Positions 20,287 to 49,025 of a stretch of 64,000 nt of DNA are shown piece by piece (within the stretch, counting starts at the first letter, position 1; the number at the start of each line of letters is the position of its first letter). Origin of the DNA: Candidatus Electronema sp. JM (GTDB lineage Bacteria > Desulfobacterota > Desulfobulbia > Desulfobulbales > Desulfobulbaceae); the NCBI RefSeq assembly GCF_048287415.1, contig NZ_JBLWEN010000001.1:88790-152789 (forward strand). Reading direction: 5' to 3'. The translations under genes were made by a program, and so were the position numbers. Below the pieces are notes generated by a model, which was not told the origin of the DNA, did not search any database, and saw only the letters and a list, made by a program, of their open reading frames with translations.

Positions 20287-20376
20287 GTTACGGTCTATTC
20301 AAAATCAATTACAAGGAAAATTTTTATGGTTATTCCGAGCACAACGAGGAATCTTTGCTGCTTCTGAAACATCCAT

Positions 20377-28272: not shown

Positions 28273-31200
28273 ATGCGCATCCTCAAACTCCGCCTGCGCA
28301 ACCTCAACTCCCTTGTCGGCGGGTGGGAGATTGACTTCACCCACCCGGCCTTTGCCGACGGCATCTTCGCTATCACCGGCCCAACCGGCGCAGGCAAGAC
28401 CACTATTCTCGATGCGCTCTGCCTCGCGCTGTATGGCCGCACGCCGCGCTTGGATAAAGTGACGAAGCGCGGCAATGAGATTATGTCTCGGCAGAGCGGC
28501 GAATGCTTTGCCGAGGTGGAATTCTCGGTCGGCAAGGAGGCCCGCCGCTGCTCCTGGAGCCAAGGCCGCAGCCGGAAAAAGGCGGACGGAGAACTTCAGC
28601 AGCCGAAGCGCGAGCTGTCGCTGCTCAACGGCGAGATTCTTGCCAGCAGCGTCAGCAGCGTGGAACAGCTTGTTGAGGAATGCACCGGCATGGATTTCGA
28701 CCGCTTCACCCGCTCCATGCTGCTCGCGCAGGGCGGTTTCGCCGCCTTTCTCCAAGCCTCGCCGGATGAGCGTTCGCCGATTTTGGAGCAGATCACCGGC
28801 AGCACAATTTACAGCGAGATATCCATCCGTGCGCATGAACGCTGGAAACGCGAAAACGACCGCCAGAAGCAGCTTGAGGAACAGGCGGCGGCCTTCCAGC
28901 TTCTCAGCTTGGAAGAAGAGGACGTGCTGCGGCAGGAGCTGGACAGGCTGCGCGGCGAGGTGCGCGTTCAGGGCGACAGGCTGACGCAGCTTGATGCCGC
29001 TCTGAAATGGCTGAAGCGACTTGCTGATCTACGCCAAGACGTGGCAGCGGTCAGCAGGGAGCAGGCCGGGCTGGCTGCGGCGCAAGAGCAGTTTGCCGCC
29101 AGCGAGCAGCGGCTGCGTCTGGACGGACTGGCCCTGCTTGTAGCTGGGGAGCACGCCGCCTTGGCCGCCCGGCGTAAGCAGCAGGCGGATGATCTCAGTG
29201 CAGCGGCAATCTTACGCCGCAGCCTGCCGGAGCTGGAAGCCGCGCTCAAGGCGGCAGACGGGCGGTTGGTCAGCAGCGGCGATGCGCTTGCAGCAGCCAA
29301 AGCAGCGCAGGAGACAGGCCGCGTCCTTATCACCAAAGTGCGCGAGCTGGATTTTCGCTTGCAAGAGAAGCGGGCCGCGCTGCGCAAGCAGGACGAAGCC
29401 TGCGCCGAATTGCGCCGGAAAAATGCTGCTGATCTCGCCGCCTGCGGGAAGCTGGAGCAGGAGCTGCGGCGTGTTCAGGATAGTCAGCAGCAGAGTGCGG
29501 CTTATCTGGCGAAACATGCGGCAGACGAGCGGCTGCTGACAGACTTGACCGGTCTCGGTCAGCAATTGAAGCAGCTTGGCGAGCTGGCCTGGCGGCATGA
29601 GGATGTCAGGCTCGCAGCGGCACTTGCTGAGAAAACCGCTGCCGAGGCGGCGCAGTTCTGGCAGGGCAAAGCTGCGGCGCGGCGCAAGGCGGATGAGCTG
29701 CTTGCCGAAGTGCAAGAGGCACGGGCGGCGGCGGACAACGAATTTGCTCAGCTCCTGCAAGGCCGCCGGGCTGAGGAGCTGTGGCACGAGCAGAACGCCT
29801 TGATCACGCTGACCAAGCTGCTGGCCCAAGCAGATATGCTGGCCAAGGAGCGGGCTGATCTGCATGAGCAGCAGGTTGCGAACAGCGTGGCCAAACAGGT
29901 GCTGGCAGAGACGCTGCGCACGCTGCGGCAGCACTGCAATGCGGCACGGCAGGAGGAGGAAGTCCGGCGGATTGAAGCGGACTTTGCCAAGCGCGTGCTC
30001 AGTCTGGAGGAGCAGCGGGCGCGGCTTCAGGCCGGACAGCCGTGTCCGCTCTGCGGCTCGCCGGAGCATCCCTACGCACAGGGCGGTTTACCTTTGCTGC
30101 ATCAGGCCGAATTGGCCGCGCAGGCAGCCGCTGCGGCCTTGCGGCAGGCTGAGGAAGCTCTGAACAAGGCGGACAAAGAGCAGGCGCGGTTAGATCAGGC
30201 TGCCCAGCATCTCGATGAGCGTCTGACTGAGAAGAACACGGCCATGCAGGCACTTCAGCAGCAGACAGCCAACTGCTGCGCCGAGCTGGCTCTGGTGCCG
30301 GAGCAGCAGCTGTCGGAAATTGAGCAGCGGCTGCATGAGAATCGGCAGACCGTGCAGGCCGCTGAGGCATTGACCAAGAAAATCAGCCAGCTTGGCAAAA
30401 CGCTGGAGCAGCGGCAGGCCGCCTGCATCCAAACTGCGCAGGATGAAAGCAAGGCCGCTGCTGCGCGGGATAAGGCGCAGGAGGCGCGGCAGCGTCTGGC
30501 TGAGGAAGAGCGCAATTTAGCAGAAGATGTGGCGGTAAAGCTGCGGGCGGCGCAAACTGAGCTAGCGGTGTACGGCTGCGCTGAGTTCTCGCTGCGGGAG
30601 ATTGACCAAACCGCCATTGCGTTGACCACCCGCCGCGACACATGGCAGCGGCATCAGCAGCAGCGTATTGCGGCGGAGCAGAAGATTGCCGGGCTTGATA
30701 CAGACGTAAAGGTGCTGCGGGCGGGCATTGAGCAGCGGAACAGGCAGCTTGAGCACGAGGAGCCGCTGCTGCAAGCAGGACGGCAGGAGGCGGAACGGTT
30801 GGCCGCTGAACGGGCCGCGCTCTTTGCCGACAAGCAGCCGGAAGCGGAAGAAAAGCGGCTGGCTGAGGCGGTCAAAGCGGCGGAGCAGGCCGTTGAGCAG
30901 GCGCAGGCGGCGCAGCAGCGACAAGAGAAAACGCTGCATCAGCAACACGCCCTGATCAGCAGCCGGGAGCGTGCCGCTGCGGACAGGATGCCGGAGCTGG
31001 CGCGGCAGGAGGCAGCCTTTGCCGAACGGCTGCGGGCGGGCGGTTTTGCCGATGAAGCGGCTTGGCAGACGGCGCAGCTTGCTGAGGCGGAGCGGGCGGC
31101 CTTGCGGCGGCAGGCGGAAGAGCTGCGTGACCGCCGGACACAGCTTGACGAGCGGCGGCGCGACCGCGAAGCCCGCTTGGCCGAGGAGGAGCAATTAGCC

Positions 31201-31884
31201 CTCACCGACTTGGATCAAGCGCGGCTGGAGGAGGAGCAGGCCGGGCTGACGCTCGCCAGCCGCCGGACAGCGGAGCAGATCGGCTCGCTGACGCAGCGGC
31301 TTGCTGACAACCAGGAGCGGCGCGGCCAGCAGAGCGGCCTGCTCCGTGAGCTGGCGGCGCAGAAAACAGAATGCCTGCGCTGGAAAAGCCTGCATGACCT
31401 GATCGGCTCGGCGGACGGCAAAAAGTACCGCAACTTTGCTCAAGGACTGACCTTTGAGCAGATGGTGCTGCACTCCAACCGCGAGCTGGCCCGCATCCAC
31501 AGCCGCTATCTGCTCCTCCGCGATCCGCAGCAGCCGCTGGAGCTGAGTGTGGCTGATTTCGAGCAGGCGGGCGAAGTCCGCTCCGTCAAAAATCTTTCCG
31601 GCGGCGAGAGCTTCATGGTCAGCCTCGCTCTGGCCCTCGGTTTATCAAGCATGGTCGGCGGCAAGGTGGAATCCCTCTTTCTTGATGAGGGCTTCGGCAC
31701 CTTGGACGACGACGCGCTGGACTCCGCCTTGGCCCGGCTGGCCGAGCTGCGCGGCGAAGGGCGGCTGATCGGGGTGATCTCGCATGTGGCCGCGCTCAAG
31801 GAGCGGATTGCCTGCCAGATTGAGGCCCTGCCCGGCAGCGGCGGGCGGAGTGTGCTGAAAGGGCCGGGCGTGCGGCGGCTGTGA
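28273..31884 (+). CDS. sbcC: SbcC-type SMC-like ATPase (exonuclease subunit C)
   Basis: Walker A GPTGAGKTTILDA, about 900 aa of Ala/Gln/Glu/Arg coiled coil with a central zinc hook CPLCGS, signature LSGGESF, and Walker B LFLDEGFGTLD. Confidence 0.9.
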   Translation: MRILKLRLRNLNSLVGGWEIDFTHPAFADGIFAITGPTGAGKTTILDALCLALYGRTPRLDKVTKRGNEIMSRQSGECFAEVEFSVGKEARRCSWSQGRSRKKADGELQQPKRELSLLNGEILASSVSSVEQLVEECTGMDFDRFTRSMLLAQGGFAAFLQASPDERSPILEQITGSTIYSEISIRAHERWKRENDRQKQLEEQAAAFQLLSLEEEDVLRQELDRLRGEVRVQGDRLTQLDAALKWLKRLADLRQDVAAVSREQAGLAAAQEQFAASEQRLRLDGLALLVAGEHAALAARRKQQADDLSAAAILRRSLPELEAALKAADGRLVSSGDALAAAKAAQETGRVLITKVRELDFRLQEKRAALRKQDEACAELRRKNAADLAACGKLEQELRRVQDSQQQSAAYLAKHAADERLLTDLTGLGQQLKQLGELAWRHEDVRLAAALAEKTAAEAAQFWQGKAAARRKADELLAEVQEARAAADNEFAQLLQGRRAEELWHEQNALITLTKLLAQADMLAKERADLHEQQVANSVAKQVLAETLRTLRQHCNAARQEEEVRRIEADFAKRVLSLEEQRARLQAGQPCPLCGSPEHPYAQGGLPLLHQAELAAQAAAAALRQAEEALNKADKEQARLDQAAQHLDERLTEKNTAMQALQQQTANCCAELALVPEQQLSEIEQRLHENRQTVQAAEALTKKISQLGKTLEQRQAACIQTAQDESKAAAARDKAQEARQRLAEEERNLAEDVAVKLRAAQTELAVYGCAEFSLREIDQTAIALTTRRDTWQRHQQQRIAAEQKIAGLDTDVKVLRAGIEQRNRQLEHEEPLLQAGRQEAERLAAERAALFADKQPEAEEKRLAEAVKAAEQAVEQAQAAQQRQEKTLHQQHALISSRERAAADRMPELARQEAAFAERLRAGGFADEAAWQTAQLAEAERAALRRQAEELRDRRTQLDERRRDREARLAEEEQLALTDLDQARLEEEQAGLTLASRRTAEQIGSLTQRLADNQERRGQQSGLLRELAAQKTECLRWKSLHDLIGSADGKKYRNFAQGLTFEQMVLHSNRELARIHSRYLLLRDPQQPLELSVADFEQAGEVRSVKNLSGGESFMVSLALALGLSSMVGGKVESLFLDEGFGTLDDDALDSALARLAELRGEGRLIGVISHVAALKERIACQIEALPGSGGRSVLKGPGVRRL

Positions 31885-35193: not shown

Positions 35194-38100
35194 ATGAATA
35201 CTACCCAGCCGCCGCCCATCGCCTCCAAGGCTCTTGAAGCCAACTTCCAGCAGACCGCCAGTGCCGTTGCAATTTCTCCCCGCTACGCCCCGCTGCGGGA
35301 GGCCGTGGCCCGCTATCAGGGCTTGTCCGCCCGGCTGGAGCACCTGCTCTACGAAATCAGCCACCCGTTCCGCAACTGGCAGCTCATCATCGCCGAGCTG
35401 CGGCCCTTTGTCCTCAAGAATCTCAATCATTACCTCAGCCATGCGCAGGGGCCGGACTGCTTCGCCCTCTTCAGCTCGATCTTCCTGGACGCGCTGAAGG
35501 ACTCGCGCAAAAACAGCAAGGTCATCGCCCTGACCATGGAGGCCATGCTCGCCTATGCGGACAAAGTCGTCGCCTCGCTCAAGCCGGACATGCTGCCGCT
35601 CTACGGCCCGCAGCTCAACGCTTTTTTCGAGCAGCTCGCCCGCTTGGACGAGATAGACAGCAGCCTGATGGCGCACATGGTGCAGGGCCATCATCCGATG
35701 AAGAAGATGGCGGCCCAGCTCATCAGCCTGAGCCGCAGCGCGGGCGCGGAAACCTTCTCCTGCGCTGCGGCGGCCAAGCTGCTGCGGAAAATCCTCGAAA
35801 TCAACTATGCCTGCTGGCTGGGCGAAGAGGATCCGCAGCCTTGGTTCGAGTCGCAGTGCGGCGGCGGCAGCTGCTGCGGTCAGGCCGGAACCGACTTGGC
35901 GGCGATCTCTCACAGCCGGATGCGCGAGCATCTGACCGCGCTGGAGCAGATCAGCATTGACGAGGATCCGCAGGAGGCCCTCAGCCGCATCTTGGAGCTG
36001 CCCGCGCATATCGACATCGTCCGCCTCTACCGGGAAATCCCCGGCAAATTAGGCGAACATGCTGCGGACACCGACCCGGCGGCGGTGGAGAACCGGAAGC
36101 TCTTCTTCCTCTTCCGCATCATGGAGACCTCCGGCCTCTCGCTCATTCATGAGGAAACCCTGCGCGAGATCAACCGTTCTTTGGTGCAGCTCATCCGCCG
36201 TCAGAGCTTTGACGAGATTGCCGAGTTTTTCACCACCGCCTTTCACTTGCTCAAGGCCAATGTGCGCAAATATCCGCACACTTCGCTGCAATGTATTCAG
36301 GTCATCGGCGGTGAAGTCTTCCAGCGCGGCAACTCGCGTTTAGTTGAAGCCTTCCTCTTCGAGACCGTGCGCTTCGGCTTCCAGCACGCCAATGTCATGG
36401 GCGTGGACGAGGACTGGCAGCCGATCAGCAACCCGGCGCATTTGGCCAACATCCGGGTCTGGCTGAACTTGATCATGCAGGAGCCGAAATGGTGCTCGAC
36501 GCTCTTCTCGGCCCTGATCATCAACCTGCGTCTCTCCGGCACCTGCGTCAAAGACACCGACCTCTTCCAGCGCGACATCACCCAGCTCCTCAATCATCCC
36601 ATCGGCCCGATCTATAACTTGGCCAAGCAGTTCAGCAAGCTGATGCCGGTCTTCTTCAATGAGATCGGCGCGGAAGGCGAGCTGCGCGATGTCTCCACCG
36701 AATTGGATGAACTGCACAAGCGGCACGACGTGCTCATTCATTTTCTCCGCAAGCAGTCGCACGTCGAGTCGTCGAACCTGATTGTCGGCTTCATCCGGGC
36801 CATCTACAGCTTCTGGCTGACCTTGGACAAGAAACCGCTGGCCGCCTATCTGCCGGAAGAAATCCTCAGTCAGGTGGCGAGCAGCGGCCCTTATGTGGAC
36901 GAGCTGCATCTGCTCGCTCAACAGGTGCGCGAGGAATTGGAATACAGCACAGTGGACGAGCTGCTGACCTGGGACGAGGCGGAGCGGAAAGACTGGCTGC
37001 TGCGCCAGAGCGACATTTCCGCTGGCGAGCGCAAACGCTTTGACCTGCTGGTGCGGATGTTCAAGCTGCTCCACCACAAATACAGCTTGGGCATGGATGA
37101 GCTGCGCGGTCAGCTCGAGCACGCGGTGCAGAACGGCTTCCCGGAAATGACCGAGCTGCTGGAGGTTTTGGAGCACGGCGACACCTGGACCTGCTTGGAC
37201 GCAGTGCTGACGCAATTAGAGCAGCTTAAAGAGACCATCCTCAGCGACAAGAAATTTGCGCCGAAGGAGGAAATTTACTACAAGCGGCACATCGCGGTGG
37301 ATATTCCTTCCGTCTATGGCCGCTATTCGGAGCGCAAATTTGACGCGCTCGGCCTGACCTTCCGCTTGGAGAGCCTGGCCAATATTTATTTGGAACGGCT
37401 GAACCGCTCGATCAATCTCGGCTTCATCACCCAAGCCACCTTCATCGGCATCGCCAAAAGCCTCAGCCTCTCTCTCCGCGCCCTGAAGATTGACGGCATC
37501 AGCAGCCGCCGCTTGGACACCTACACCAGCCTGCTCAACTCCTCGATCAGCATCAAACGCTTCACCTACACCCAGCACTTGGACATCTTCCGTGGGTTGT
37601 CAGAAGGGGTGAAGGATGTGATTTATGCCTATTACACCAATATTCATCAGAACAATCTCTCGGTCATCATTCCCCAGATCGGCGGCGAGAATCTGCTGAC
37701 CAAAAACCGGACGCTCTGGGACGAGAAGGACATGTCCTCGACCGTGCACCGCCTTTCCGAGTCCTTCTTCCGCGACCTGATCGCAGCCACCTTCGGCCTC
37801 CAGCATTTGGACAACTTCATCACCCGCATCATCCACACGCTGGAGGCGCAGCGCGACATTCTCGACGAGCAGACCCTCGACCTGCTCATGACCTACAACC
37901 CGGAAATCGCCATCTCCTCGCTCTACAACGAGAATCCGCTCACGCACAACCTGATTCATCTCGGCAACAAGGGCTTCAACCTCATGCTCTTGGCCAACGA
38001 CGGCAAGCCGGTGCCGCCCGCCTTCATCATCACCACTGAAATATTCCGCTGCTGGCAGGCGGTGCAGGGCTTCACCAAGGCGCGGGAGGAGTTTATGCAG

Positions 38101-39444
38101 CGGCTGCACACCTCCATCACCGGCTTGGAGGAGCGCACAGGCCGCCGCTTCGGCTCGCCGGAAAACCCGCTGCTGCTTTCGGTGCGTTCCGGCGCGGCGA
38201 TTTCCATGCCCGGCATGATGACTACGATCCACAACGTCGGCCTGAACGAGGATTTGCTGGAGGAGCTGTGCGTCAAGCACCCGGAGCAGGAGTATTTTCT
38301 CTGGGACACCTACCGCCGCTTCCTGCAATCTTGGGCGATGGGCGAAGGCATGGGCCGCGAGGAGTTCGGCGCGCTGATGAACGCGCACAAGAAACGCTAC
38401 GGCAAGCGGCTGAAACGCGAATTCAGCCCGGCGCAGATGCGCGAGCTGGCTCTTGAATACCGCAACGCCATGCGGCGGCACGGATGCAGCGCGCCGGAAG
38501 ATCCTTGGCTTCAGCTGGTGCGGGCGGTGGAGATGGTGCTGGATTCGTGGAGCACCCATAAAGCCCGCCAGTACCGCCACCTGATGGCCGTCTCCGACGA
38601 CTGGGGCACAGCAGTGATTGTCCAGACGATGGTCTATGGCAACCGCAATCAGCAGTCCGGCAGCGGCGTGCTCTTCACCGCCCATCCCTACCGCAAGGTG
38701 CGGCGGGTCGCGCTCTGGGGCGATTACGCCTCCGGTGATCAGGGCGAGGACATCGTCTCCGGCCTTGTCACCAGCTATCCGATCTCGGTCGAGCAGGCGG
38801 AGCTGGACGGGCGTTCGGTCGAGCAGAGCCTCGAACGCCGCTTCCCGGAGATCTACGAGCAGCTCCTCAGCATCTCCCGCGACTTGGTGTACACTAAAGA
38901 ATGGAACCCGCAGGAGATTGAGTTCACCTTTGAAAGCCCTGACCCGGACGATCTCTACGTGCTCCAGACCCGCGACATGATCACCATCAAGAAGAAGGAG
39001 CATTTCCGGGTCTTCGAGGAAAGCGAGGCGCAGCAGGCGGCGGTGCTCGGCAAGGGCATCGGCGTGAGCGGCTCCGCCATCTCCGGCCTGGCTGTCTTCA
39101 CCGACGAAAACATCCGCCAGCTCCGCCACGAGCAGCCGGACATGCCGCTCATCCTCCTCCGCCAGGACACGGTGCCGGAGGACATCCGGGAAATCTCCAT
39201 GTGCGACGGCCTGCTCACCGCGCGCGGCGGCCAGACCTCGCACGCTTCCGTGGTCGCAACGCGCTTGGAGAAAACCTGTGTGGTCGGCTGCCGCGACTTG
39301 CAGGTCTTCGAGGACAAGGAGCAGGCGGCCATCAACGGCCTTGTGATAAAATTCGGCGACCCGGTCTCCATTGACGGGCGCAGCGGCCTCTTCCTGCGCG
39401 GCATCCATCCGACGCGAGAAGAGGTGCATATTTTGCCGCTGTAG
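35194..39444 (+). CDS. 1416-aa PPDK-like protein: ~900-aa unknown helical N-terminal region + PPDK-type ATP-grasp + swivelling phospho-His domain, with no PEP/pyruvate TIM-barrel domain
   Basis: From about residue 915 it reads HLGNKGFNLMLLA..G.PVPPAFIITTE, LLLSVRSGAAISMPGMMTTIHNVGLN, GVLFTAHPY and GDQGEDIVSG. The mobile domain is GLLTARGGQTSHASVVATRLEKTCVVGC. The protein ends about 65 aa after the catalytic-His motif. Confidence 0.75.
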   Translation: MNTTQPPPIASKALEANFQQTASAVAISPRYAPLREAVARYQGLSARLEHLLYEISHPFRNWQLIIAELRPFVLKNLNHYLSHAQGPDCFALFSSIFLDALKDSRKNSKVIALTMEAMLAYADKVVASLKPDMLPLYGPQLNAFFEQLARLDEIDSSLMAHMVQGHHPMKKMAAQLISLSRSAGAETFSCAAAAKLLRKILEINYACWLGEEDPQPWFESQCGGGSCCGQAGTDLAAISHSRMREHLTALEQISIDEDPQEALSRILELPAHIDIVRLYREIPGKLGEHAADTDPAAVENRKLFFLFRIMETSGLSLIHEETLREINRSLVQLIRRQSFDEIAEFFTTAFHLLKANVRKYPHTSLQCIQVIGGEVFQRGNSRLVEAFLFETVRFGFQHANVMGVDEDWQPISNPAHLANIRVWLNLIMQEPKWCSTLFSALIINLRLSGTCVKDTDLFQRDITQLLNHPIGPIYNLAKQFSKLMPVFFNEIGAEGELRDVSTELDELHKRHDVLIHFLRKQSHVESSNLIVGFIRAIYSFWLTLDKKPLAAYLPEEILSQVASSGPYVDELHLLAQQVREELEYSTVDELLTWDEAERKDWLLRQSDISAGERKRFDLLVRMFKLLHHKYSLGMDELRGQLEHAVQNGFPEMTELLEVLEHGDTWTCLDAVLTQLEQLKETILSDKKFAPKEEIYYKRHIAVDIPSVYGRYSERKFDALGLTFRLESLANIYLERLNRSINLGFITQATFIGIAKSLSLSLRALKIDGISSRRLDTYTSLLNSSISIKRFTYTQHLDIFRGLSEGVKDVIYAYYTNIHQNNLSVIIPQIGGENLLTKNRTLWDEKDMSSTVHRLSESFFRDLIAATFGLQHLDNFITRIIHTLEAQRDILDEQTLDLLMTYNPEIAISSLYNENPLTHNLIHLGNKGFNLMLLANDGKPVPPAFIITTEIFRCWQAVQGFTKAREEFMQRLHTSITGLEERTGRRFGSPENPLLLSVRSGAAISMPGMMTTIHNVGLNEDLLEELCVKHPEQEYFLWDTYRRFLQSWAMGEGMGREEFGALMNAHKKRYGKRLKREFSPAQMRELALEYRNAMRRHGCSAPEDPWLQLVRAVEMVLDSWSTHKARQYRHLMAVSDDWGTAVIVQTMVYGNRNQQSGSGVLFTAHPYRKVRRVALWGDYASGDQGEDIVSGLVTSYPISVEQAELDGRSVEQSLERRFPEIYEQLLSISRDLVYTKEWNPQEIEFTFESPDPDDLYVLQTRDMITIKKKEHFRVFEESEAQQAAVLGKGIGVSGSAISGLAVFTDENIRQLRHEQPDMPLILLRQDTVPEDIREISMCDGLLTARGGQTSHASVVATRLEKTCVVGCRDLQVFEDKEQAAINGLVIKFGDPVSIDGRSGLFLRGIHPTREEVHILPL

Positions 39445-39451
39445 CTGATGG

Positions 39452-39478
39452 CGAAAAAGGGGCGAAGAAAATCGCCCC
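39452..39478 (-). terminator. Rho-independent terminator of the AT-rich operon (hairpin shared with the convergent PPDK-like gene)
   Basis: GGGGCGA (39459-39465) pairs with TCGCCCC (39472-39478). Read on the minus strand, the hairpin is followed directly by TTTTT. Confidence 0.6.
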
Positions 39479-39495: not shown

Positions 39496-40212
39496 CTATT
39501 GAGCAGTGCCTTTTCGAGGAATCTTCAGCCGTAGTCTTGGATAAATTAAGTTTGGGTTATCCATCAACTGAGGATGCTTCTCTTTATTTGCCAAAATAAT
39601 TTCTTGAACAGAAACGTGGTGTCGTTCAGCGATCTTTCCTAAACAATCGCCTTCCATTACTTGATAGCAGTCTTTGCCTAAATAGCAATCAACAGTCTCC
39701 TTTAGTTCTGTGATATTTTCTGGATTGGCATAGAATATGTAGACTGGCGCGAAAATCAAAGAAACAGCGTACCATCTTTTTTTACGAAATATCCATCTAA
39801 TGTTTATTGTTTTTTCATAAATTTTTTTTATTTTGCTTTTGCAATTTTCAATAAAAATTATGCCGCCGCTCAAGATGCCATCTATTTTATAGACAAAAAC
39901 AGGCAGATTCGACCTGTATTTCCGTATCAATCTATTTCCATATCCTTCCATGTAAAGAAGGATAAAAAACAATGTAAAAACACAGAATGCTATTATTTTA
40001 AATAAAATCATTAAAATCCAAGGAAGCACCCGGAGCGCAAGCCAAGGAATCAACAACATCAATACGAAAAGAATAACAAACGGGAGTGCAACGGATAGCC
40101 ATTCTGATCTTGATGCAGAAAATAGCTGTTCGGAAATAACTTGGAAGAAAAGAATACCTTTTATAAGGTATTCATCTTGAATTTGGTTTAACAGGCTATT
40201 CAGGCGTTCCAT
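39496..40212 (-). CDS. Island gene D: polytopic membrane protein with C-terminal LysM domain
   Basis: There are 3-4 hydrophobic helices (LSVALPFVILFVLMLLIPWLAL, ILMILFKIIAFCVFTLFFILLY, AVSLIFAPVYIFY). The LysM-like C-terminus is YQVMEGDCLGKIAERHHVSVQEIILAN...IYPRLRLKIP. The start overlaps the gene C stop by 17 nt. Confidence 0.7.
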   Translation of the reverse strand: MERLNSLLNQIQDEYLIKGILFFQVISEQLFSASRSEWLSVALPFVILFVLMLLIPWLALRVLPWILMILFKIIAFCVFTLFFILLYMEGYGNRLIRKYRSNLPVFVYKIDGILSGGIIFIENCKSKIKKIYEKTINIRWIFRKKRWYAVSLIFAPVYIFYANPENITELKETVDCYLGKDCYQVMEGDCLGKIAERHHVSVQEIILANKEKHPQLMDNPNLIYPRLRLKIPRKGTAQ

Positions 40213-41437
40213 CTCTCCTTATTGATTCAGGGTGTATATTAATATCCGCACTTTCTTCTTGTTGATCCTGTTGTTTTTCCTCGCTGGATGACTTTTCTCC
40301 AATAAGAGCAGCTCCTTGGTCTGACAATCTTCCTACCTTCTGCACAAGTGATTTGGCAATATCCTCAAACCTCCATTCGCCGATCACACCTTTTTCAACG
40401 AAAATTTTTAATATTTCTATACAAGTTGAATTCTCTTCAACACGCATCTTCTCTTCCCTGTCTATTTGCTGTTTGACAAATGAAAGCAATTCTCTGTCGT
40501 TTGGATTTTCTGGATTGCATATTGCAATAATTCCGCGCCAATTACCAATTGACAGGAGCGGCGACAGCAGCGTTTCCCTATTTAGCCTATGATTGAATTC
40601 AATTCGCTGCATTTCAAGCTGCTTCTCAAATTCAATCTGCTTGATTCGCATCTCTGCTTCCATTTTCTTCAATTCAAAATTCATACTTTGTTCCAGCAGG
40701 ATAGTTTGCCTATAAAGCTCAATTTTCCTATCCTTAAATAGCAGCTCCTGTCTCATGGACTCTATCTCCATTTTCTGCTGCATCAGCCGTTTTTCCATTT
40801 CAGCCTTTATGGCATCTACCGAGAATTGCTCCTGAATGATTTTTTCTTGATTTTTTGCATCTATCGTCCCCAGCTTTCCATCAATCAGCCTTTTGCTGAT
40901 GGATTCATGTGGCGACAGCGTAACGAATGGAGGACGGCTTAACTTGAATCCTAAGTCATGAATTTTATTGCCATATATCAATTGACTTTTAAGCTCCTCA
41001 ACAACAGCTCGTTCTGCCTGCGATGCCTGCTCGTTCGCATAGTTTCGACAGATAGGCCGGATTATATCAAGAGCTGACTCTTTTAAAAAATCCCGAATGT
41101 CTCTCCTTCCATTCTGCACAATAAGCAATGGATTATCTATGCAATAAGTCAATGTGACTTCAGCTTGAAAAGGGAGTTCGTCAGCACAAGGAATACTTAC
41201 TGAAAAAAGAATTGAATATTCCGACAGATCAACTTCATAATACACCTTATATGTGCCGATGAGAATGTCGCCAGCTGTCGGCCCGCCATTTTTTCCTGCG
41301 TAAACAACAATTGGCGGACAATTTTCTCCAAGAAAGACATGTGCCTTTCCGAATTTCGGCGATTCAGGCCGTTTGAAGGAAAATTTTTCCAGTTTTCTCT
41401 CAATAACAAGCGGATATTCTTCAGGAGCGAAATCCAT
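40196..41437 (-). CDS. Island gene C: SPFH/band-7-like N-terminal domain + long coiled coil (flotillin-like architecture), putative
   Basis: FSVSIPCADELPFQAEVTLTYCIDNPLLIVQNG..DIRDFL resembles the SPFH beta-alpha core. Residues ~195-290 are Glu/Lys/Met/Gln-rich heptad-like sequence. The start overlaps the gene B stop by 17 nt. Confidence 0.5.
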   Translation of the reverse strand: MDFAPEEYPLVIERKLEKFSFKRPESPKFGKAHVFLGENCPPIVVYAGKNGGPTAGDILIGTYKVYYEVDLSEYSILFSVSIPCADELPFQAEVTLTYCIDNPLLIVQNGRRDIRDFLKESALDIIRPICRNYANEQASQAERAVVEELKSQLIYGNKIHDLGFKLSRPPFVTLSPHESISKRLIDGKLGTIDAKNQEKIIQEQFSVDAIKAEMEKRLMQQKMEIESMRQELLFKDRKIELYRQTILLEQSMNFELKKMEAEMRIKQIEFEKQLEMQRIEFNHRLNRETLLSPLLSIGNWRGIIAICNPENPNDRELLSFVKQQIDREEKMRVEENSTCIEILKIFVEKGVIGEWRFEDIAKSLVQKVGRLSDQGAALIGEKSSSEEKQQDQQEESADINIHPESIRRDGTPE

Positions 41438-42929
41438 TTTTTATCTCTGTTAAAATTTTCAAGGAAGTTTCAGATTCATCAGACCATTTTTCTAAGTACG
41501 CGCAAATGCAATTGCGATTTCTTGGAATACGAGAGACATCATATAAAATTCTTGCGAGAGTTTTCCAGAATTTTCCGTGCATGTCAATATGTTTCAGCCA
41601 CTTGAATATTTCAGTAAGAGCAAGTCGTCTGATTGGCTCCGAATCAAAAACTCTTTGCAGCAGACGGACAATGAGTTCTTCCGTCTTTGCTTTCTCTTCC
41701 GCAAGAATAAGAAGGCTCGGATGCTGGGAGCCGTCTTTAATTGACCAAGAAATACGCATCAAATCTGAAAATATAAGCAGAGACAAGCGATGAAGCGAGG
41801 ATTTTTTCTCCTGCCGTCCCCATTGGTTAAGAGATTGCAGAACGAGAACCGACGAACTTGATTGCTTGAAGAGCCATTTGACAGCATAAGCTATATCTTT
41901 AAAGAGTATTCCGTTGCCTGAATTTGCAATATTTCTTAAATCTTCGAGAGCTTGTTCAGGAAAATGCTGACCAAGACAAGAGCAATATGCGAAAATTGCA
42001 GTTTGATTCAATTTGACTGAATTTTTCAGACTACTCCAATAATGAATACTATTTAAAGAAAGTTGAGCAACATCTTCGTTTTCATCATATAAAACAACTG
42101 CAAGCGCAAATCCAACTAATTTTTGGATAGATTGACTTTCTGATTTTGCCCAAGGCAACAATATTTGGTCACGAACCGGTTGAAATTCATACCGTGCCAG
42201 CCGACCCGCTGTTGCTGCTGCTCTCAGTCTGATTTGAGAATTTTCATGTTTCCCTAACTCAAACAACCATTGCAGCATTGCTTTTGCATAAACATCACGT
42301 TCATGCCAGATGTGATGCAAAACAGTTTCTGGAGTTTCTTGGTCATCAAATGCAACTTTCTTGACAGGACTTTTGCCGCATTCGGTAACTTCGCAATCAT
42401 TTTCAAGATGCGCTGATATGTCTTTAAGCCACTGACTCCTTTTCTTTTCCTCTATCTCTTCGTCCAGATTAGAAGTATTTTCTATCTCCGCTTCCTTCCG
42501 CGACTGCAACCGAATGATATTTTGCAAATACTGGCTCGCCTCATCAACTAATCGGTAATTGCAGCCATTAAACACTGACAGTGAAATGATAAAACTGCGC
42601 CTGCTTTTGCAGCTATCAAATATAGATTCGATAGAAGAATCAAACGATTTATCTTTGTCCGCTTGCGTTTTTTGGCCAGAATAATTGCTCTGATCTCCGG
42701 CGATTATCGAGCCAGTATTATTTATATTGCTGTTTGATGCATGAAACCCTCCAGTGTAATTATAATTTTTAATTATTTGAATAATAGTTCTGCTGTTCTC
42801 TGTAAAATCATCTGTTTCGTTCGTATGTATTTTATTGTATTTTATAGATTCTTCAACAGATTTTATACCGTCATCTTCAGAAAGATGATCAATTTTTTCA
42901 AAGAAATTTTCTTCGTCGCCTTGTTCCAT
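41421..42929 (-). CDS. Island gene B: hypothetical protein with an acidic/Asn-rich N-terminus and a HEAT/ARM-like helical repeat body
   Basis: A 502-aa ORF at about 35% GC. The HEAT-like motif IRLRAAATAGRLARY is present. The N-terminal motif TGSIIAGDQ echoes the gene A C-terminus. I recognised no enzymatic motif. Confidence 0.6.
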   Translation of the reverse strand: MEQGDEENFFEKIDHLSEDDGIKSVEESIKYNKIHTNETDDFTENSRTIIQIIKNYNYTGGFHASNSNINNTGSIIAGDQSNYSGQKTQADKDKSFDSSIESIFDSCKSRRSFIISLSVFNGCNYRLVDEASQYLQNIIRLQSRKEAEIENTSNLDEEIEEKKRSQWLKDISAHLENDCEVTECGKSPVKKVAFDDQETPETVLHHIWHERDVYAKAMLQWLFELGKHENSQIRLRAAATAGRLARYEFQPVRDQILLPWAKSESQSIQKLVGFALAVVLYDENEDVAQLSLNSIHYWSSLKNSVKLNQTAIFAYCSCLGQHFPEQALEDLRNIANSGNGILFKDIAYAVKWLFKQSSSSVLVLQSLNQWGRQEKKSSLHRLSLLIFSDLMRISWSIKDGSQHPSLLILAEEKAKTEELIVRLLQRVFDSEPIRRLALTEIFKWLKHIDMHGKFWKTLARILYDVSRIPRNRNCICAYLEKWSDESETSLKILTEIKNGFRS

Positions 42930-42942
42930 TTTTGATCTCTCT

Positions 42943-43353
42943 TCATTTTTTATTTATTTGATCCCTGCCTATAAAAGTCCCTTCATTGACAAAGGTGGAA
43001 TTTTTGATAAGCACACCTCCTGTTTGCACAATTCTTTCTACCTTTACCCCATAAAGCCGTGCGATATCTAACGCTAATTCCTGATCTTCTTGGAGCAGCT
43101 TTTTCACTTGAAAGTGCAGAGTCTTCTGCGCATCTTCTTCTGAAGGATCCCGTACCACATCTTCTGCCGCCATTTTCACACCTTCAACTCTTGCAGAAGA
43201 ACGGGAAGAAATTTTTGTCCAGACAGCCTTGGCCGTCTCCCATCCGTCAGAACCTATTTTTTCTAACGCTCCTCCCAGTATCTGTCCCCCACCGCTCAAC
43301 AGATAAGGAAGTACTGGCACTAAAGAAGAAACAACCATTTCAGCAAGTTCCAT
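42943..43353 (-). CDS. Island gene A: small helical protein (136 aa) resembling N-terminal adaptor modules of conflict-system NTPases
   Basis: LVPVLPYLLSGG..ILGGALEKIGSDGWETAKAVWTKI...DPSEEDAQKTLHFQVKKLLQEDQELALDIARL is followed by EGTFIGRDQ. It is the first gene of the operon, 13 nt upstream of gene B. Confidence 0.55.
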   Translation of the reverse strand: MELAEMVVSSLVPVLPYLLSGGGQILGGALEKIGSDGWETAKAVWTKISSRSSARVEGVKMAAEDVVRDPSEEDAQKTLHFQVKKLLQEDQELALDIARLYGVKVERIVQTGGVLIKNSTFVNEGTFIGRDQINKK

Positions 43354-43653
43354 AGTTTTTTCTCAATGTCTCAAGTTGTTCCAGCAGCCAGAGCAATTCA
43401 GGCTTGACAAGGGCAGGCTGCCGATGAATACTGCGCTGCTCAGTATGTGATCACCTGCAATAAATTTCAAGTATTTTAAAAGGGCTTTTGAGCTGCCTTG
43501 CTGCCTGTCTCGGCGGTGCAACAGCGGAGGCCGTCACATCGTTTACATTGAAAAAACAAGGCTACAGGTCACAGCTTGGATTGAGCATTTACGTCGAGGA
43601 AGTTTTCAAATTATCTAAAAACTGAAATACTACAGCTTGCATGTCCGGCAGCT

Positions 43654-47340: not shown

Positions 47341-48318
47341 TCAGTCCTTGCGCCTGCTGATGCTGACGCGTTGCAGCAGGCGGTTCTGGTCTTTGGCACC
47401 GTCATAGGCAATGACAAGCTGCCAGCTGTCCTGCCGCTCCTCAAGCACAGCCAAGCCCTCAGCCTTGGAGTCCTCGTCCGGCGGCGCAATTTCACCAAGC
47501 AGACACAGCCTGCCCATATCCTCCGGCCTGCGGTCTTTGCCCGGCACCGTGTCTTTGCCGTTCCAATGATAAATTTGATACGAATCTGTCCCGTCGCCCA
47601 CCGGCCCGGCCAAGATCAAAAAACCGTCAGCAACAGTGGCGAGATCGCGGATACCCCGCCCGCCGAGCCGGACATACAGCAGCTCGTATTGTTCCGGCTC
47701 CTCCCAACGCAGCCGCAGCACCGGGACGTAATTGTCCCGGAAGACCGGTCCCCGGAAACCGACATGCAGCCAGCCGTCCTTGACAGCAAGGCCTTCAATG
47801 TCAACGCCGTTCTCTTTGCTGGGAATGCCGCAGAAGGCTTTCAAGGCCGGATCATTATAAATGATGCCGCGCAGACTGATTCTGTCCTTCGCCAGCTCCT
47901 TGCCGTCTTCATTCAGCCGCAGGCGGAAGAGCCAGTCCCGGCTGACCTCGTCTTCAATTTTGTCCTGATGAAAAGTCTCCCGGTTTTCCTTCCAGTTGCG
48001 TTCTTTCTTGATCTTCTTCCGTTTGGAGGAGTGCGAGCCGATGACGTAAGCAAGATCGCCTTCAACGCAGATGCCTTCAATATCCAGCTCCTTGCCTTGC
48101 GTTACGAGGATACTGTGCGCCGCCACGCAGCTGCCGTCGCTGTTTATCGTAAGAAACTGAATGCGATTCTCGTCTCCGTCATGGCCTGATGCCTCGTCTG
48201 CGCCGATGATTAAAAAGGAGCGGAACTTTGCGACCGCGCTCACATTCTCAAGGGCCAAAATTTCGCCTGATATGCTTATAAAGCAAGCAGGTGCCATATC
48301 CTCATTTCTCCATAACAT
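47341..48318 (-). CDS. DUF3616-like protein (hypothetical)
   Basis: Repeated D(I/V)EG(I/L)(A/C)V motifs (DIEGICVEG, VDIEGLAVKDGWLHVGFRGP, AEGLAVLEE) match my recollection of DUF3616. The start overlaps the upstream stop by 17 nt; an alternative internal Met exists. Confidence 0.45.
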   Translation of the reverse strand: MLWRNEDMAPACFISISGEILALENVSAVAKFRSFLIIGADEASGHDGDENRIQFLTINSDGSCVAAHSILVTQGKELDIEGICVEGDLAYVIGSHSSKRKKIKKERNWKENRETFHQDKIEDEVSRDWLFRLRLNEDGKELAKDRISLRGIIYNDPALKAFCGIPSKENGVDIEGLAVKDGWLHVGFRGPVFRDNYVPVLRLRWEEPEQYELLYVRLGGRGIRDLATVADGFLILAGPVGDGTDSYQIYHWNGKDTVPGKDRRPEDMGRLCLLGEIAPPDEDSKAEGLAVLEERQDSWQLVIAYDGAKDQNRLLQRVSISRRKD

Positions 48319-48967
48319 TATATTTCTTAATATGCCTGAAAGCGGTCAACGCATCAAGGATGAAATCAAGCGATCCGGCTGGGCCATTGTAATGATAGAC
48401 ATTCTTCTTAGCCATGACCAATTCTCCGATATGCACTGGTGAAAAATCAGGATCAGCGCATGAAAGCTGGAACCATTCTCCTTCTTTTTTTTGAAACTTC
48501 CCCTGCATGGCTTCGATATCATAATTTGCCACCTGGTCATCTGTCGCCCGCCACATATTGTAGCTGCCATGCCCGACAAGCACGATGCTTTGATATTTTG
48601 GATCAGTGAGAACGTTCATGAAATCCGCTTTGGTAGCCGCAAAAAAATAGTCTATTTTTTCTCCTCTTGCATTAAAATACCACGTCCATGCCGGGTAGCT
48701 TCCCAAAAAGCCGAACGGCGGCGCCCAATAATCATAATCTGAAAAGGCATGTGCGGACAGCAGAATTGCGGCGTTCTTATCTGTTTTTGTAAGTAAATTT
48801 GAAGTGAATGCAATCGCCGCTATTGGTATATAAACTGCGATAAGAATAACAACATATTTTATCAGAGGCTTAATGCTGATAGTTCCAAATTTTTTCTTAA
48901 ATATAACGTGATATAAGCTCATGGGTGTCGTGCATGTTGAAATGATATAGCTTTTTCTTATGATCAA
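48302..48967 (-). CDS. AT-rich membrane-anchored hypothetical protein
   Basis: N-terminal TM helix YVVILIAVYIPIAAIAF. I assigned no family. The ORF-track start at 48967 is TTG, and ATG at 48922 is an alternative. Composition is visibly AT-rich compared with both neighbours. Confidence 0.5.
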   Translation of the reverse strand: MIIRKSYIISTCTTPMSLYHVIFKKKFGTISIKPLIKYVVILIAVYIPIAAIAFTSNLLTKTDKNAAILLSAHAFSDYDYWAPPFGFLGSYPAWTWYFNARGEKIDYFFAATKADFMNVLTDPKYQSIVLVGHGSYNMWRATDDQVANYDIEAMQGKFQKKEGEWFQLSCADPDFSPVHIGELVMAKKNVYHYNGPAGSLDFILDALTAFRHIKKYNVMEK

Positions 48968-49025
48968 AACTCTCAGCGTATATCCATGTCGTCACCTGAC
49001 ATGGCTTTAAATTGAAAAAGCAATG

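What the first reader, a model, noticed from the sequence alone, without database searches (positions are those of the whole stretch)
42943..42980. Shared G-x-(F/I)-I-(G/A)-x-D-Q motif at the gene A C-terminus and the gene B N-terminus
Gene A ends ...TGGVLIKNSTFVNEGTFIGRDQINKK. Gene B, about 55 residues in, has IIKNYNYTGGFHASNSNINNTGSIIAGDQSNY (roughly 42640-42735). Each protein therefore carries a similar IKN...G..I.G.DQ beta-strand-like segment at the end that faces its partner in gene order. I recall GGD(F/I)VGRD(K/Q)-type segments as recurrent N-terminal elements of STAND NTPase and TIR-type conflict proteins, where they may mediate oligomerisation. Here the motif is split across two adjacent small ORFs, which suggests co-assembly or an ancestral fusion or fission.
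Basis: partly seen in the sequence, partly recalled or inferred. Interest (0 to 1): 0.5.

Follow-up and report, generated by a model that had tools for sequence, protein, structure and literature searches.

The report
Shared amyloid-type motif links death-effector pair
Two neighbouring genes in a horizontally acquired island of a cable bacterium carry the same short glycine/asparagine-rich motif, arranged like known bacterial "amyloid signalling" pairs in which a sensor protein switches on a membrane-attacking suicide protein; here the sensor is an unusual type without an NTPase domain, and it is always encoded together with an SPFH protein and a membrane protein that often carries a cell-wall-binding LysM domain.

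Summary
Gene A (42943-43353, minus strand, 136 aa) ends with TGGVLIKNSTFVNEGTFIGRDQIN. Gene B (41421-42929, 502 aa) carries TGGFHASNSNINNTGSIIAGDQSN at residues 59-82. The match beats composition-preserving shuffles (p about 2-4e-4). It is the only region that aligns between the two family profiles (hhalign E 2.9e-6). It is conserved in nine A/B pairs from Electronema and filamentous cyanobacteria, and cognate pairs are more alike than non-cognate ones (p = 0.004).

A belongs to a large family (578 clusters) with a ~100-aa helical N-domain and hypervariable G/N/V/I-rich tails. Many tails match published BASS6, BASS2 or BASS9 motifs, and the N-domain also occurs fused to STAND NTPases and CHAT proteases. 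This is the Bell-type cell-death effector family.

B is not an NLR. It has an acidic leader, the motif, and an ARM/HEAT-like solenoid. A and B begin a conserved low-GC operon, A-B-SPFH-membrane protein (LysM in the window and some relatives), that is foreign to the Electronema genome (39% against 58% GC).

Best reading: an amyloid-signalling regulated-cell-death module of a new, NTPase-less architecture with a motif outside BASS1-9. Amyloid formation, toxicity and the trigger are inferred. The "split motif" and A/B fusion/fission idea is not supported.

The parts
43442..43470 (-). Sigma-70-like promoter candidate upstream of gene A (TTGAAA-17-CATACT).
   Evidence: This is a consensus match only, and the number of such sites in the region is not above the shuffled expectation.
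43039..43353 (-). Gene A residues 1-105: Bell-like helical N-domain. It begins ME + hydrophobic helix (ELAEMVVSSLVPVLPYLLSGGG).
   Evidence: AF2 gives a helical bundle with pLDDT of about 85. An exhaustive HMM search finds 578 related clusters, mostly 130-160 aa. The same domain is fused to STAND/NACHT NTPases and to CHAT. tblastn gives E 6e-10 to the effector side of a canonical effector/NLR-like pair in Aulosira.
42943..43038 (-). Gene A residues 106-136 plus stop: disordered C-terminal tail carrying the shared motif (core residues 111-134, window 42952-43023).
   Evidence: pLDDT is below 40. The motif alignment is, conservation, and coordinates.
42765..42929 (-). Gene B residues 1-55: acidic leader of mostly low model confidence (15 D/E against 6 K/R).
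42684..42755 (-). Gene B residues 59-82: the partner copy of the shared motif (TGGFHASNSNINNTGSIIAGDQSN).
   Evidence: The region is disordered in the AF2 model.
41430..42332 (-). Gene B residues 200-500: ARM/HEAT-like alpha-solenoid. No P-loop or NOD domain is present.
   Evidence: AF2 pLDDT is about 90. Foldseek hits are armadillo, importin-alpha and SF3b HEAT proteins with probability up to 1.0 and E about 1e-3. Pfam finds no NTPase. HEAT_2 is flagged in one homologue.
40196..41437 (-). Gene C: SPFH/Band-7 domain protein (413 aa) without a hydrophobic anchor. It overlaps B by 17 nt.
   Evidence: Pfam PF01145 scores 29 bits against a cut-off of 23.6. It is conserved downstream of B.
39496..40212 (-). 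Gene D: polytopic membrane protein (238 aa) with a C-terminal LysM domain (residues 183-232, window 39517-39666). It overlaps C by 17 nt.
   Evidence: Pfam LysM scores 28.5 bits against a cut-off of 20.9. Homologues carry TPR plus LysM.
39459..39478 (-). Terminator-like GC-rich hairpin followed by a T-run, 18 nt after the stop of D.

Best explanation
Genes A and B are the effector and the trigger of an amyloid-signalling regulated-cell-death module of the Bell/BASS type.

A is a Bell-family protein. Its helical bundle sheathes a hydrophobic N-terminal helix (the presumed membrane-attacking element), and it ends in a disordered tail of about 25 residues rich in G, N, V and I. B carries the same motif behind an acidic leader, followed by an ARM/HEAT-like repeat domain.

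Proposed mechanism, inferred by analogy with HET-S/NWD2, Bell/NLR pairs and Bab/Agp:
1. A signal makes B cluster.
2. B's motifs nucleate a cross-beta fold.
3. That fold templates the identical motif in A.
4. A's N-terminal helix is released, the membrane is permeabilised, and the cell dies.

Unlike canonical systems, B has no NOD/NTPase oligomerisation domain. I infer that the two co-operonic proteins supply clustering and input: the SPFH protein, whose family generally forms large membrane-associated oligomers (my background knowledge), and the membrane protein D, which carries LysM here. The trigger may be related to the envelope or to peptidoglycan.

The whole four-gene operon is a low-GC island acquired horizontally by Electronema, most likely from a filamentous cyanobacterium-like donor.

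Shown here: the motif sharing, its conservation and within-pair covariation, A's family membership, B's fold class, the operon conservation and the foreign origin. Inferred: amyloid formation, toxicity, the direction of signalling, and the roles of C and D.
For: 1. The motif is shared beyond composition and only there.
2. It is conserved at the A C-terminus and in the B N-region in nine independent pairs. Cognate pairs score 60.6 against 46.0 for non-cognate pairs (permutation p = 0.0036, or 0.033 without the strongest pair). Pair-specific changes are striking, for example L016 A 'QGGGVAFGSGSEVNNPGTISGRDVN' against B 'AGGGVAFGTQSVVSNLGSIAARDVS'.
3. A's N-domain family has 578 clusters, typically 130-160 aa, starting M-D/E plus a hydrophobic helix. 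Of 118 tails, 41 match published BASS6 above a 99.5% shuffle threshold, 6 match BASS2 and 5 match BASS9.
4. The domain is also fused to STAND/NACHT NTPases and to CHAT. A hits the effector of a canonical pair, Aulosira BAZ78632.1 with the NLR-like BAZ78633.1, which share 'SG..SVA.GGSVSG.IITGDNN'.
5. These features fit the Bell definition in Dyrka et al. (doi 10.1101/2020.01.06.895854).
6. Motif composition is G 23%, N 11.5%, V and I about 11% each, with K, L, P and E depleted. This is the bias reported for BASS motifs.
7. Both motifs are disordered in monomer AF2 models next to confident folded domains.
8. The genes are collinear and 13 nt apart, as in published pairs.
9. A non-NLR partner has an experimental precedent in Bab/Agp (doi 10.1101/2024.11.07.622273).
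10. An NLR-side motif starting about 50 residues in also has precedent (BASS9 nlr_20, residues 51-73).
11. All identified hosts are multicellular filamentous bacteria: Electronema, Microcoleus and Okeania.
12. Neighbours at other loci are toxin-antitoxin, PIN, Trypco2 and CHAT type genes.
Against: - There is no experimental or computational test of fibril formation here. ArchCandy, AmyloComp and AF-multimer were not available.
- B has no NOD/NTPase, so the canonical nucleation mechanism is missing.
- The motif does not fall into BASS1-9. The mean best score is at most 31, against 68 between A and B.
- None of the four proteins matches PADLOC.
- The Bell assignment rests on family architecture and tails, not on a direct comparison with the founder Bell sequences.
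- The covariation test rests on only nine pairs, and one pair contributes much of the signal.
- The covariation would also arise if both motifs co-evolved with a third partner.
Confidence: 0.68

Rival explanations
1. The shared segment is an ordinary heterotypic interaction strand, not an amyloid. It would mediate beta-augmentation or a small beta-solenoid interface that holds A and B in a stable soluble complex, for example with B acting as an inhibitor or chaperone of A. No templating or prion-like switch would be involved.
For: The motif is shared, conserved and co-varies within pairs, which any direct A-B contact would predict. B lacks an oligomerisation NTPase. The acidic leader next to the motif could keep it soluble.
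Against: A belongs to a family whose hypervariable tails include many matches to experimentally amyloid-forming BASS classes. The composition and the C-terminal/N-terminal layout are those of amyloid signalling pairs. Homotypic, same-sequence motifs are typical of templating rather than of complementary interfaces.
Confidence: 0.15
2. Both motifs are docking peptides for a common third component of the operon, the SPFH protein C or the membrane protein D. A and B would then be recruited independently to the same membrane platform rather than to each other.
For: C and D are invariably co-encoded with A and B. Covariation between A and B could be indirect, through a shared receptor.
Against: In the wider A family the same tail logic operates in two-gene pairs without SPFH or LysM partners, for example the Aulosira pair. 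No matching motif or obvious receptor site was seen in C or D.
Confidence: 0.08
3. The similarity is a compositional artefact of Asn/Gly/Ile-rich low-complexity sequence, or a relic of an ancestral A-B fusion or fission with no present function.
For: Both segments are G/N/I/V-rich. The pairwise BLASTP E-value is only 0.004.
Against: Shuffles that preserve the composition of the motif segment itself reach the observed score in 1 of 5000 trials. The profile-profile E-value is 2.9e-6. The motif is conserved at 40-50% overall protein identity across phyla, with pair-specific covariation. No fused A-B protein was found, and each protein has a full copy of the motif.
Confidence: 0.03

Closest known systems
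Bell-domain effector / NLR gene pairs with bacterial amyloid signalling sequences (BASS1-10), Dyrka et al. 2020 (doi 10.1101/2020.01.06.895854)
   Same: - The effector is a 120-150 aa protein with a helical N-domain that starts with an acidic residue and a hydrophobic helix.
- A motif of about 25 aa, rich in G, N, V and I, sits at its C-terminus and is repeated near the N-terminus of the product of the next collinear gene.
- The hosts are multicellular filamentous bacteria.
- Relatives of A's N-domain carry BASS6-, BASS2- and BASS9-like tails and are also fused to STAND NTPases.
   Different: - The partner B has no NB-ARC or NACHT domain. It has only an ARM/HEAT-like solenoid.
- The motif lies outside BASS1-9 by sequence. 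The nearest resemblances are partial, to BASS7, BASS2 and the GRDQ of BASS1/BASS8.
- Two further genes (SPFH, and a membrane protein with LysM in several members) are obligatory neighbours.
- The host phylum is Desulfobacterota. [quoted passage not shown]
- Here the locus is present through a horizontally acquired island.
Bab/Agp abortive-infection system of E. coli (BASS11), Ibarlosa et al. 2024 (doi 10.1101/2024.11.07.622273)
   Same: A small Bell-related effector and a large non-NLR repeat-containing partner are encoded by adjacent genes and share a motif of about 20 aa. That study gives experimental proof that such a pair signals by amyloid templating and kills the cell.
   Different: - Agp is TPR-GreA/B-C-PIN with the motif at residues 2-25. 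B is an acidic leader, the motif at residues 59-82, and an ARM/HEAT-like domain with no nuclease or RNA-polymerase-binding domain.
- Bab has the shorter 'Babybell' domain of about 80 aa. A's domain is about 105 aa.
- Bab/Agp has no SPFH or LysM genes.
Fungal HET-S/NWD2 and other HeLo/HeLL effector-NLR amyloid pairs
   Same: The logic is the same: the receptor's N-terminal motif templates the effector's C-terminal motif, which releases an N-terminal membrane-targeting helix.
   Different: They are eukaryotic, the receptor is an NLR, and the motif families are different (HRAM, sigma, PP). No detectable sequence or structural similarity to A was found.
Effector-associated domains (EADs, for example Pfam EAD10 PF19954), which the Pfam names link to STAND-NTPase conflict systems
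   Same: The concept is the same: a short module shared by an effector and its partner couples the two. EAD10 gives weak hits over the BASS6-like tail or N-terminal region of two relatives, P0050 and Aulosira BAZ78633.1.
   Different: Neither A nor B matches EAD10 or any other EAD model at E <= 0.1.

Membership tests
Bell-domain cell-death effector family (Dyrka et al. 2020) | Short protein (about 120-140 aa) with a helical-bundle N-domain of about 100 aa. | tested here: met
   A is 136 aa. In the AF2 model, residues 1-105 are helical with pLDDT of about 85 and the tail is disordered.
Bell-domain cell-death effector family (Dyrka et al. 2020) | Hydrophobic N-terminal helix with an acidic residue at position 2 or 3. 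| tested here: met
   A starts MELAEMVVSSLVPVLPYLL. The family consensus starts MD...LA....LAP.LPYLLK.
Bell-domain cell-death effector family (Dyrka et al. 2020) | The N-domain is homologous to that of effectors in canonical effector/NLR pairs and also occurs as the N-terminal domain of NLR-like NTPases. | tested here: met
   tblastn gives E 6e-10 to Aulosira BAZ78632.1, whose neighbour is a P-loop STAND protein sharing its tail motif. P0057 and P0175 are fusions to NACHT/AAA_16/nSTAND domains, and four others are fused to CHAT. Of 118 family tails, 41 match BASS6. A direct match to the founder Bell sequences or HMM could not be made, because the domain is not in Pfam or NCBIfam.
Bell-domain cell-death effector family (Dyrka et al. 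2020) | Structural relation to the Babybell, HeLo or MLKL-type folds. | tested here: inconclusive
Bell-domain cell-death effector family (Dyrka et al. 2020) | Membrane-targeting, cell-killing activity. | not testable with these tools
   This needs expression and toxicity assays.
Bacterial amyloid signalling sequence (BASS) pair | The same motif of about 20-25 aa occurs at the effector C-terminus and in the partner's N-terminal region, encoded by adjacent collinear genes. | tested here: met
   The intergenic gap is 13 nt. Nine orthologous pairs show it.
Bacterial amyloid signalling sequence (BASS) pair | Enriched in G, N, Q, V and I, depleted in K, P and L, with beta-propensity. | tested here: met
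   G 23%, N 11.5%, V 10.5%, I 11.3%; K 2.3%, L 1.3%, P 0.3%. Q is not enriched (3.8%). Beta-arch propensity (ArchCandy) was not computed.
Bacterial amyloid signalling sequence (BASS) pair | The partner is an NLR (NB-ARC or NACHT plus TPR or WD repeats). | tested here: not met
   B has no NTPase domain in Pfam, NCBIfam or PADLOC. The AF2 and Foldseek results show only an ARM/HEAT-like solenoid.
Bacterial amyloid signalling sequence (BASS) pair | The motif sequence belongs to one of the named classes BASS1-9. | tested here: not met
   The mean best local score to samples of each class is 21-31 (z at most 4.7 over shuffles), against 68 (z 24) between the A and B motifs.
Bacterial amyloid signalling sequence (BASS) pair | Forms amyloid fibrils or prion-like foci, and the receptor side seeds the effector side. 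| not testable with these tools
   This needs ThT, EM or ssNMR measurements and in vivo foci or cross-seeding assays.
Bab/Agp (BASS11) antiphage system | The partner has a TPR-GreA/B-C-PIN architecture and the effector has a Babybell domain of about 80 aa. | tested here: not met
   B has no TPR, GreA/B-C or PIN domain. A's domain is about 105 aa.
EAD10 (Pfam PF19954) effector-associated domain | Match to the Pfam model. | tested here: not met
   There is no hit for A or B at E <= 0.1. Only relatives with BASS6-like motifs give weak hits.
SPFH/Band-7 (gene C) and LysM (gene D) | Pfam model matched above the gathering score. | tested here: met
   PF01145 scores 29.0 bits against a cut-off of 23.6. 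PF01476 scores 28.5 bits against a cut-off of 20.9.

The most novel reading that the evidence does not exclude
The A-B-SPFH-membrane protein operon is a previously undescribed, NTPase-independent amyloid-signalling suicide module. In it, an oligomeric SPFH scaffold and a membrane protein that often binds peptidoglycan through LysM replace the NOD domain as the clustering and input device. Envelope or cell-wall damage (from phage, a predator or injury) would then be converted directly into amyloid nucleation and Bell-mediated killing of a single cell. Filamentous bacteria would use this to sacrifice individual cells, for defence or for programmed filament breakage (necridia-like), and the module has moved between cyanobacteria and cable bacteria.
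Probability: 0.2. Interest if true: 0.8.

Novelty: new variant of a known kind. Interest (0 to 1): 0.55.

Why it matters
Amyloid templating as a signalling switch is established in fungi and animals. In bacteria it is established for Bell/NLR pairs and for one E. coli antiphage system.

This locus would extend it in four ways:
- a conserved four-gene architecture whose trigger protein has no nucleotide-binding oligomerisation domain;
- a motif class outside BASS1-9;
- a link to SPFH and, in several members, LysM (cell-envelope) proteins;
- a first case in cable bacteria, which are uncultured, centimetre-long multicellular filaments where regulated death of single cells could matter for filament integrity and phage control.

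The pair-specific covariation of the two motifs gives a natural experimental handle. Because the operon is a compact island of about 4 kb, it can be tested heterologously.

Tried and rejected
- Pfam, NCBIfam and PADLOC scans of A and B found nothing useful.
- A sequence search of the PDB with the A profile returned only designed helical repeats, which are noise.
- Scans of genome contigs and metagenome contigs with the B profile returned only 1 and 4 loci. More pairs had to be collected through the look-up of encoding contigs on the closest A homologues.
- The replacement search with B's N-terminal module found only stand-alone N-pieces and no new fusions.
- I tried to tie the A family to an accession listed in Dyrka's Table S2. 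Exact-string searches of tails and the Aulosira accessions found no match, and a second plasmid tblastn added nothing.
- With six pairs, the cognate against non-cognate comparison showed no signal (55 against 51). The signal appeared only after three more divergent pairs were added.
- The idea that B hides a Walker A motif in 'TECGKS' was rejected. There is no G-x4-GK[ST] spacing and no NTPase fold.
- The idea that the similarity reflects a DNA repeat was rejected (51% nucleotide identity; no long repeat).
- No tRNA or flanking direct repeats mark the island borders, and no integrase was looked for.

Full report
**1. What is in the sequence**

The finding lies in a run of four tightly packed minus-strand genes:
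- A: 42943-43353, 136 aa.
- B: 41421-42929, 502 aa, starting 13 nt after A's stop.
- C: 40196-41437, 413 aa, overlapping B by 17 nt.
- D: 39496-40212, 238 aa, overlapping C by 17 nt.

A promoter-like site lies upstream of A (43470-43442). A strong hairpin followed by a T-run lies just after D (39478-39459). The block has 39% G+C against 58% for the rest of the window. The window is from Candidatus Electronema sp. JM, a cable bacterium, because A and B have 100% identical database entries under that name. The upstream neighbour is a Bac_transf sugar transferase and the downstream neighbour is a PPDK-like gene. Both are at host G+C.

**2. The observation**

Both quoted segments are present. The aligned block is A residues 111-134 (TGGVLIKNSTFVNEGTFIGRDQIN, window 42952-43023) against B residues 59-82 (TGGFHASNSNINNTGSIIAGDQSN, window 42684-42755). 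Eleven of 24 residues are identical, and nucleotide identity is 51%. Those for B are about 40 nt off, and the 'IKN' correspondence is out of register.

Statistics:
- BLASTP of A against B gives E = 0.004.
- At most 2 of 5000 composition-preserving shuffles reach the observed score, including when only the B motif segment itself is shuffled.
- A profile-profile comparison of the two families aligns this block and nothing else (E 2.9e-6).
- A loose pattern for the motif occurs only twice in the six-frame translation of the window.

The refutation condition 'compositional artefact' is therefore not met.

**3. Conservation**

The word-indexed search found A homologues only in Electronema. The tail pattern GGV.I.[ND]STF.N.GT..G..[QK]IN is kept in all of them. 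B homologues at 40-50% identity carry YQGGIHI.DS.I.N.GN.VGNDQT at the same position.

Fetching the contigs showed the same operon in filamentous cyanobacteria and in metagenomes. It consists of a small A-like gene, B, an SPFH gene, and a membrane protein with TPR and, in several cases, LysM. The A-like proteins are about 40% identical to A and end in the same motif, for example SITIGGVHIAGESTVANLGNIVGGNQTIGK.

Across nine A/B pairs, the motif of A resembles the motif of its own B more than those of other Bs. The mean local score is 60.6 against 46.0, with permutation p = 0.0036, or 0.033 without the most divergent pair. Some changes are visibly pair-specific: GGGVAFG...RDV occurs in both partners of L016, and HI.G.A.V.A.NI.GG.Q in both partners of L014. 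Covariation of this kind is what a homotypic contact predicts. With only six pairs it was not detectable.

**4. What A is**

An exhaustive profile search found 578 clusters at E <= 1e-3. Nearly all are 130-160 aa. They share about 100 N-terminal residues (M-D/E..LA....L.P.LPYLLK.GEKAAEEA...) and have wildly different tails rich in G, N, V and I.

Those tails are not random. Of 118, 41 match the published BASS6 motif above a 99.5% shuffle threshold, 6 match BASS2 and 5 match BASS9 (reference motifs from Dyrka et al., Table S2). Longer members fuse the same N-domain to NACHT/AAA_16/nSTAND NTPases or to CHAT proteases.

A itself hits (tblastn E 6e-10) a 147-aa protein on an Aulosira laxa plasmid. 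That protein's tail (VSVIASGNNSVATSGSVSGIINTGDNN) is repeated at the N-terminus of the next gene (IFVPGERSVGVGGSISDSVIITGDNN), which encodes a 1206-aa P-loop STAND protein. This is a textbook effector/NLR amyloid-motif pair.

The AF2 model of A is a helical bundle (residues 1-105, pLDDT about 85) with a disordered tail (pLDDT below 40). Size, the acidic residue at position 2, the hydrophobic first helix, the bundle, the variable tails and the NLR fusions are the published defining features of the Bell domain.

I could not compare A directly with the founder Bell sequences, and the domain is absent from Pfam and NCBIfam. Structure searches gave nothing significant. The authors of the Bab structure note that Bell folds vary greatly in topology. 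Only one such gene is present in the window.

**5. What B, C and D are**

- B has no NTPase domain.
- Its AF2 model has a low-confidence N-terminal 200 residues, comprising the acidic leader, the disordered motif and a linker. Residues 200-500 form a confident alpha-solenoid (pLDDT about 90) whose Foldseek neighbours are armadillo, importin-alpha and HEAT proteins.
- In Microcoleus, Okeania and one metagenomic lineage, B is split into a 177-196-aa N-piece (leader + motif + helix) and a 355-361-aa solenoid piece. A search with the N-module found it only as such stand-alone pieces. This is the only fission seen. No A-B fusion exists in the data.
- C matches SPFH/Band-7 above the Pfam threshold and lacks a hydrophobic anchor.
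- D has a strongly hydrophobic N-terminal half, a basic loop and a C-terminal LysM domain. Its topology is not settled.
- None of the four proteins matches PADLOC.

**6. Mechanism**

The anatomy matches amyloid signalling as described for fungal HET-S/NWD2, bacterial Bell/NLR pairs and the experimentally validated E. coli Bab/Agp system. In those systems the trigger protein clusters and its motif adopts a cross-beta fold. That fold templates the same motif on the effector, and the effector's N-terminal helix is released to attack the membrane.

The motif composition here has the bias reported for BASS motifs: G 23% and N 11.5%, with K, L and P depleted. A non-NLR trigger has a precedent in Agp. 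A trigger-side motif that starts about 50 residues in also has precedent.

What is new is the absence of any oligomerisation NTPase and the constant company of an SPFH protein and a membrane protein. I infer, without direct evidence, that C and D provide the clustering platform and the input, perhaps related to the envelope. All of the following remain inferences: amyloid formation, toxicity of A, the direction of signalling from B to A, and the trigger.

**7. Rivals**

- A non-amyloid A-B interface would explain sharing and covariation equally well. It is disfavoured mainly by the family context (confidence 0.15).
- A shared third-partner docking site cannot be excluded (0.08).
- Chance, composition, or a relic of fusion or fission is essentially excluded (0.03).

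**8. Comparison and novelty**

By membership, A is a Bell-type effector, and the A/B motif behaves as a BASS-type pair. The system fails two tests for the canonical class. The partner is not an NLR, and the motif is not one of BASS1-9. Its mean best score to any class is at most 31, against 68 between A and B, with only partial echoes of BASS7, BASS2 and the GRDQ of BASS1/BASS8. It is also not Bab/Agp and not a Pfam EAD.

Full-text searches found no paper linking amyloid signalling with SPFH, LysM, cable bacteria or Electronema. The operon has 36-40% G+C in every host but sits in 58% G+C DNA in two Electronema genomes, in different local arrangements. This indicates horizontal acquisition, plausibly from filamentous cyanobacteria, which hold the nearest relatives. 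All named hosts are multicellular filaments, in line with the published association of Bell/BASS systems with multicellularity.

I rate it a new variant of a known kind, of moderate to good interest.

Noticed in passing
window 39496-43353; L010 5582-7527: The four-gene operon has 39% G+C while both Electronema genomes have about 58% around it. In cyanobacterial hosts the operon (36-40%) is close to its flanks. It looks like a horizontally acquired island, but no tRNA or flanking repeats were found at its borders, and no integrase was looked for.
   Followed up: partly
L004 5465-7068; L005 4677-6340; L009 1513-3176; L015 1440-3055: In Microcoleus, Okeania and one metagenomic lineage, gene B is split into a motif-bearing N-piece (177-196 aa) and an ARM/HEAT-like C-piece (355-361 aa). 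The two pieces are separated by 2 nt or overlap by 4 nt. The N-piece was found only as a stand-alone protein.
   Followed up: partly
window 40196-40240 (C-terminus of gene C); L007 2518-3510; L015 3070-4038; L016 8265-9308: The SPFH proteins of the operon end in an acidic stretch followed by a semi-conserved P[DE]E[IF]SR-like peptide (HPESIRRDGTPE in the window). This could be a docking peptide for B's solenoid or for D's basic loop.
   Followed up: no
L012 4911-9127 (Aulosira laxa NIES-50 plasmid3, BAZ78632.1/BAZ78633.1): This is a canonical Bell-like effector plus STAND NTPase pair sharing a BASS6-like motif. It does not appear in Dyrka's Table S2. The N-terminal 80 residues of the NTPase, which include the motif, give a weak Pfam EAD10 hit, which hints that EAD10 and BASS6 may describe the same element.
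   Followed up: partly
L001 4592-4894; L004 9807-10280; L010 4910-5365; L015 6846-7433; L016 4132-5250 and 11106-11399: Neighbours of the operon in other genomes are typical conflict or toxin-antitoxin genes: Trypco2, PIN, CHAT peptidase, BrnT, UPF0175/DUF3368 and a nucleotidyltransferase.
   Followed up: no
window 35194-39444 (+) and 28273-31884 (+); L010 2487-4691: A 1416-aa protein with PPDK_N and PEP-utilizer domains only at its C-terminus converges on the island, and SbcC lies further on. In the second Electronema genome the A/B genes also sit beside PPDK-like and SbcD genes, but in the opposite relative orientation.
   Followed up: no
window 18000-21000 and 48000-49000: Two further patches have lowered G+C (44-49%) against the background of about 58%. 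They may be additional foreign DNA.
   Followed up: no
L009 891-1512; L015 4114-4983: In the Okeania-like contig L009, no A-like ORF of at least 90 aa precedes the B N-piece, so A may have been lost or degraded. In L015 the D-like membrane protein is on the opposite strand and lacks TPR and LysM. In L005 the SPFH gene appears broken into two ORFs.
   Followed up: no
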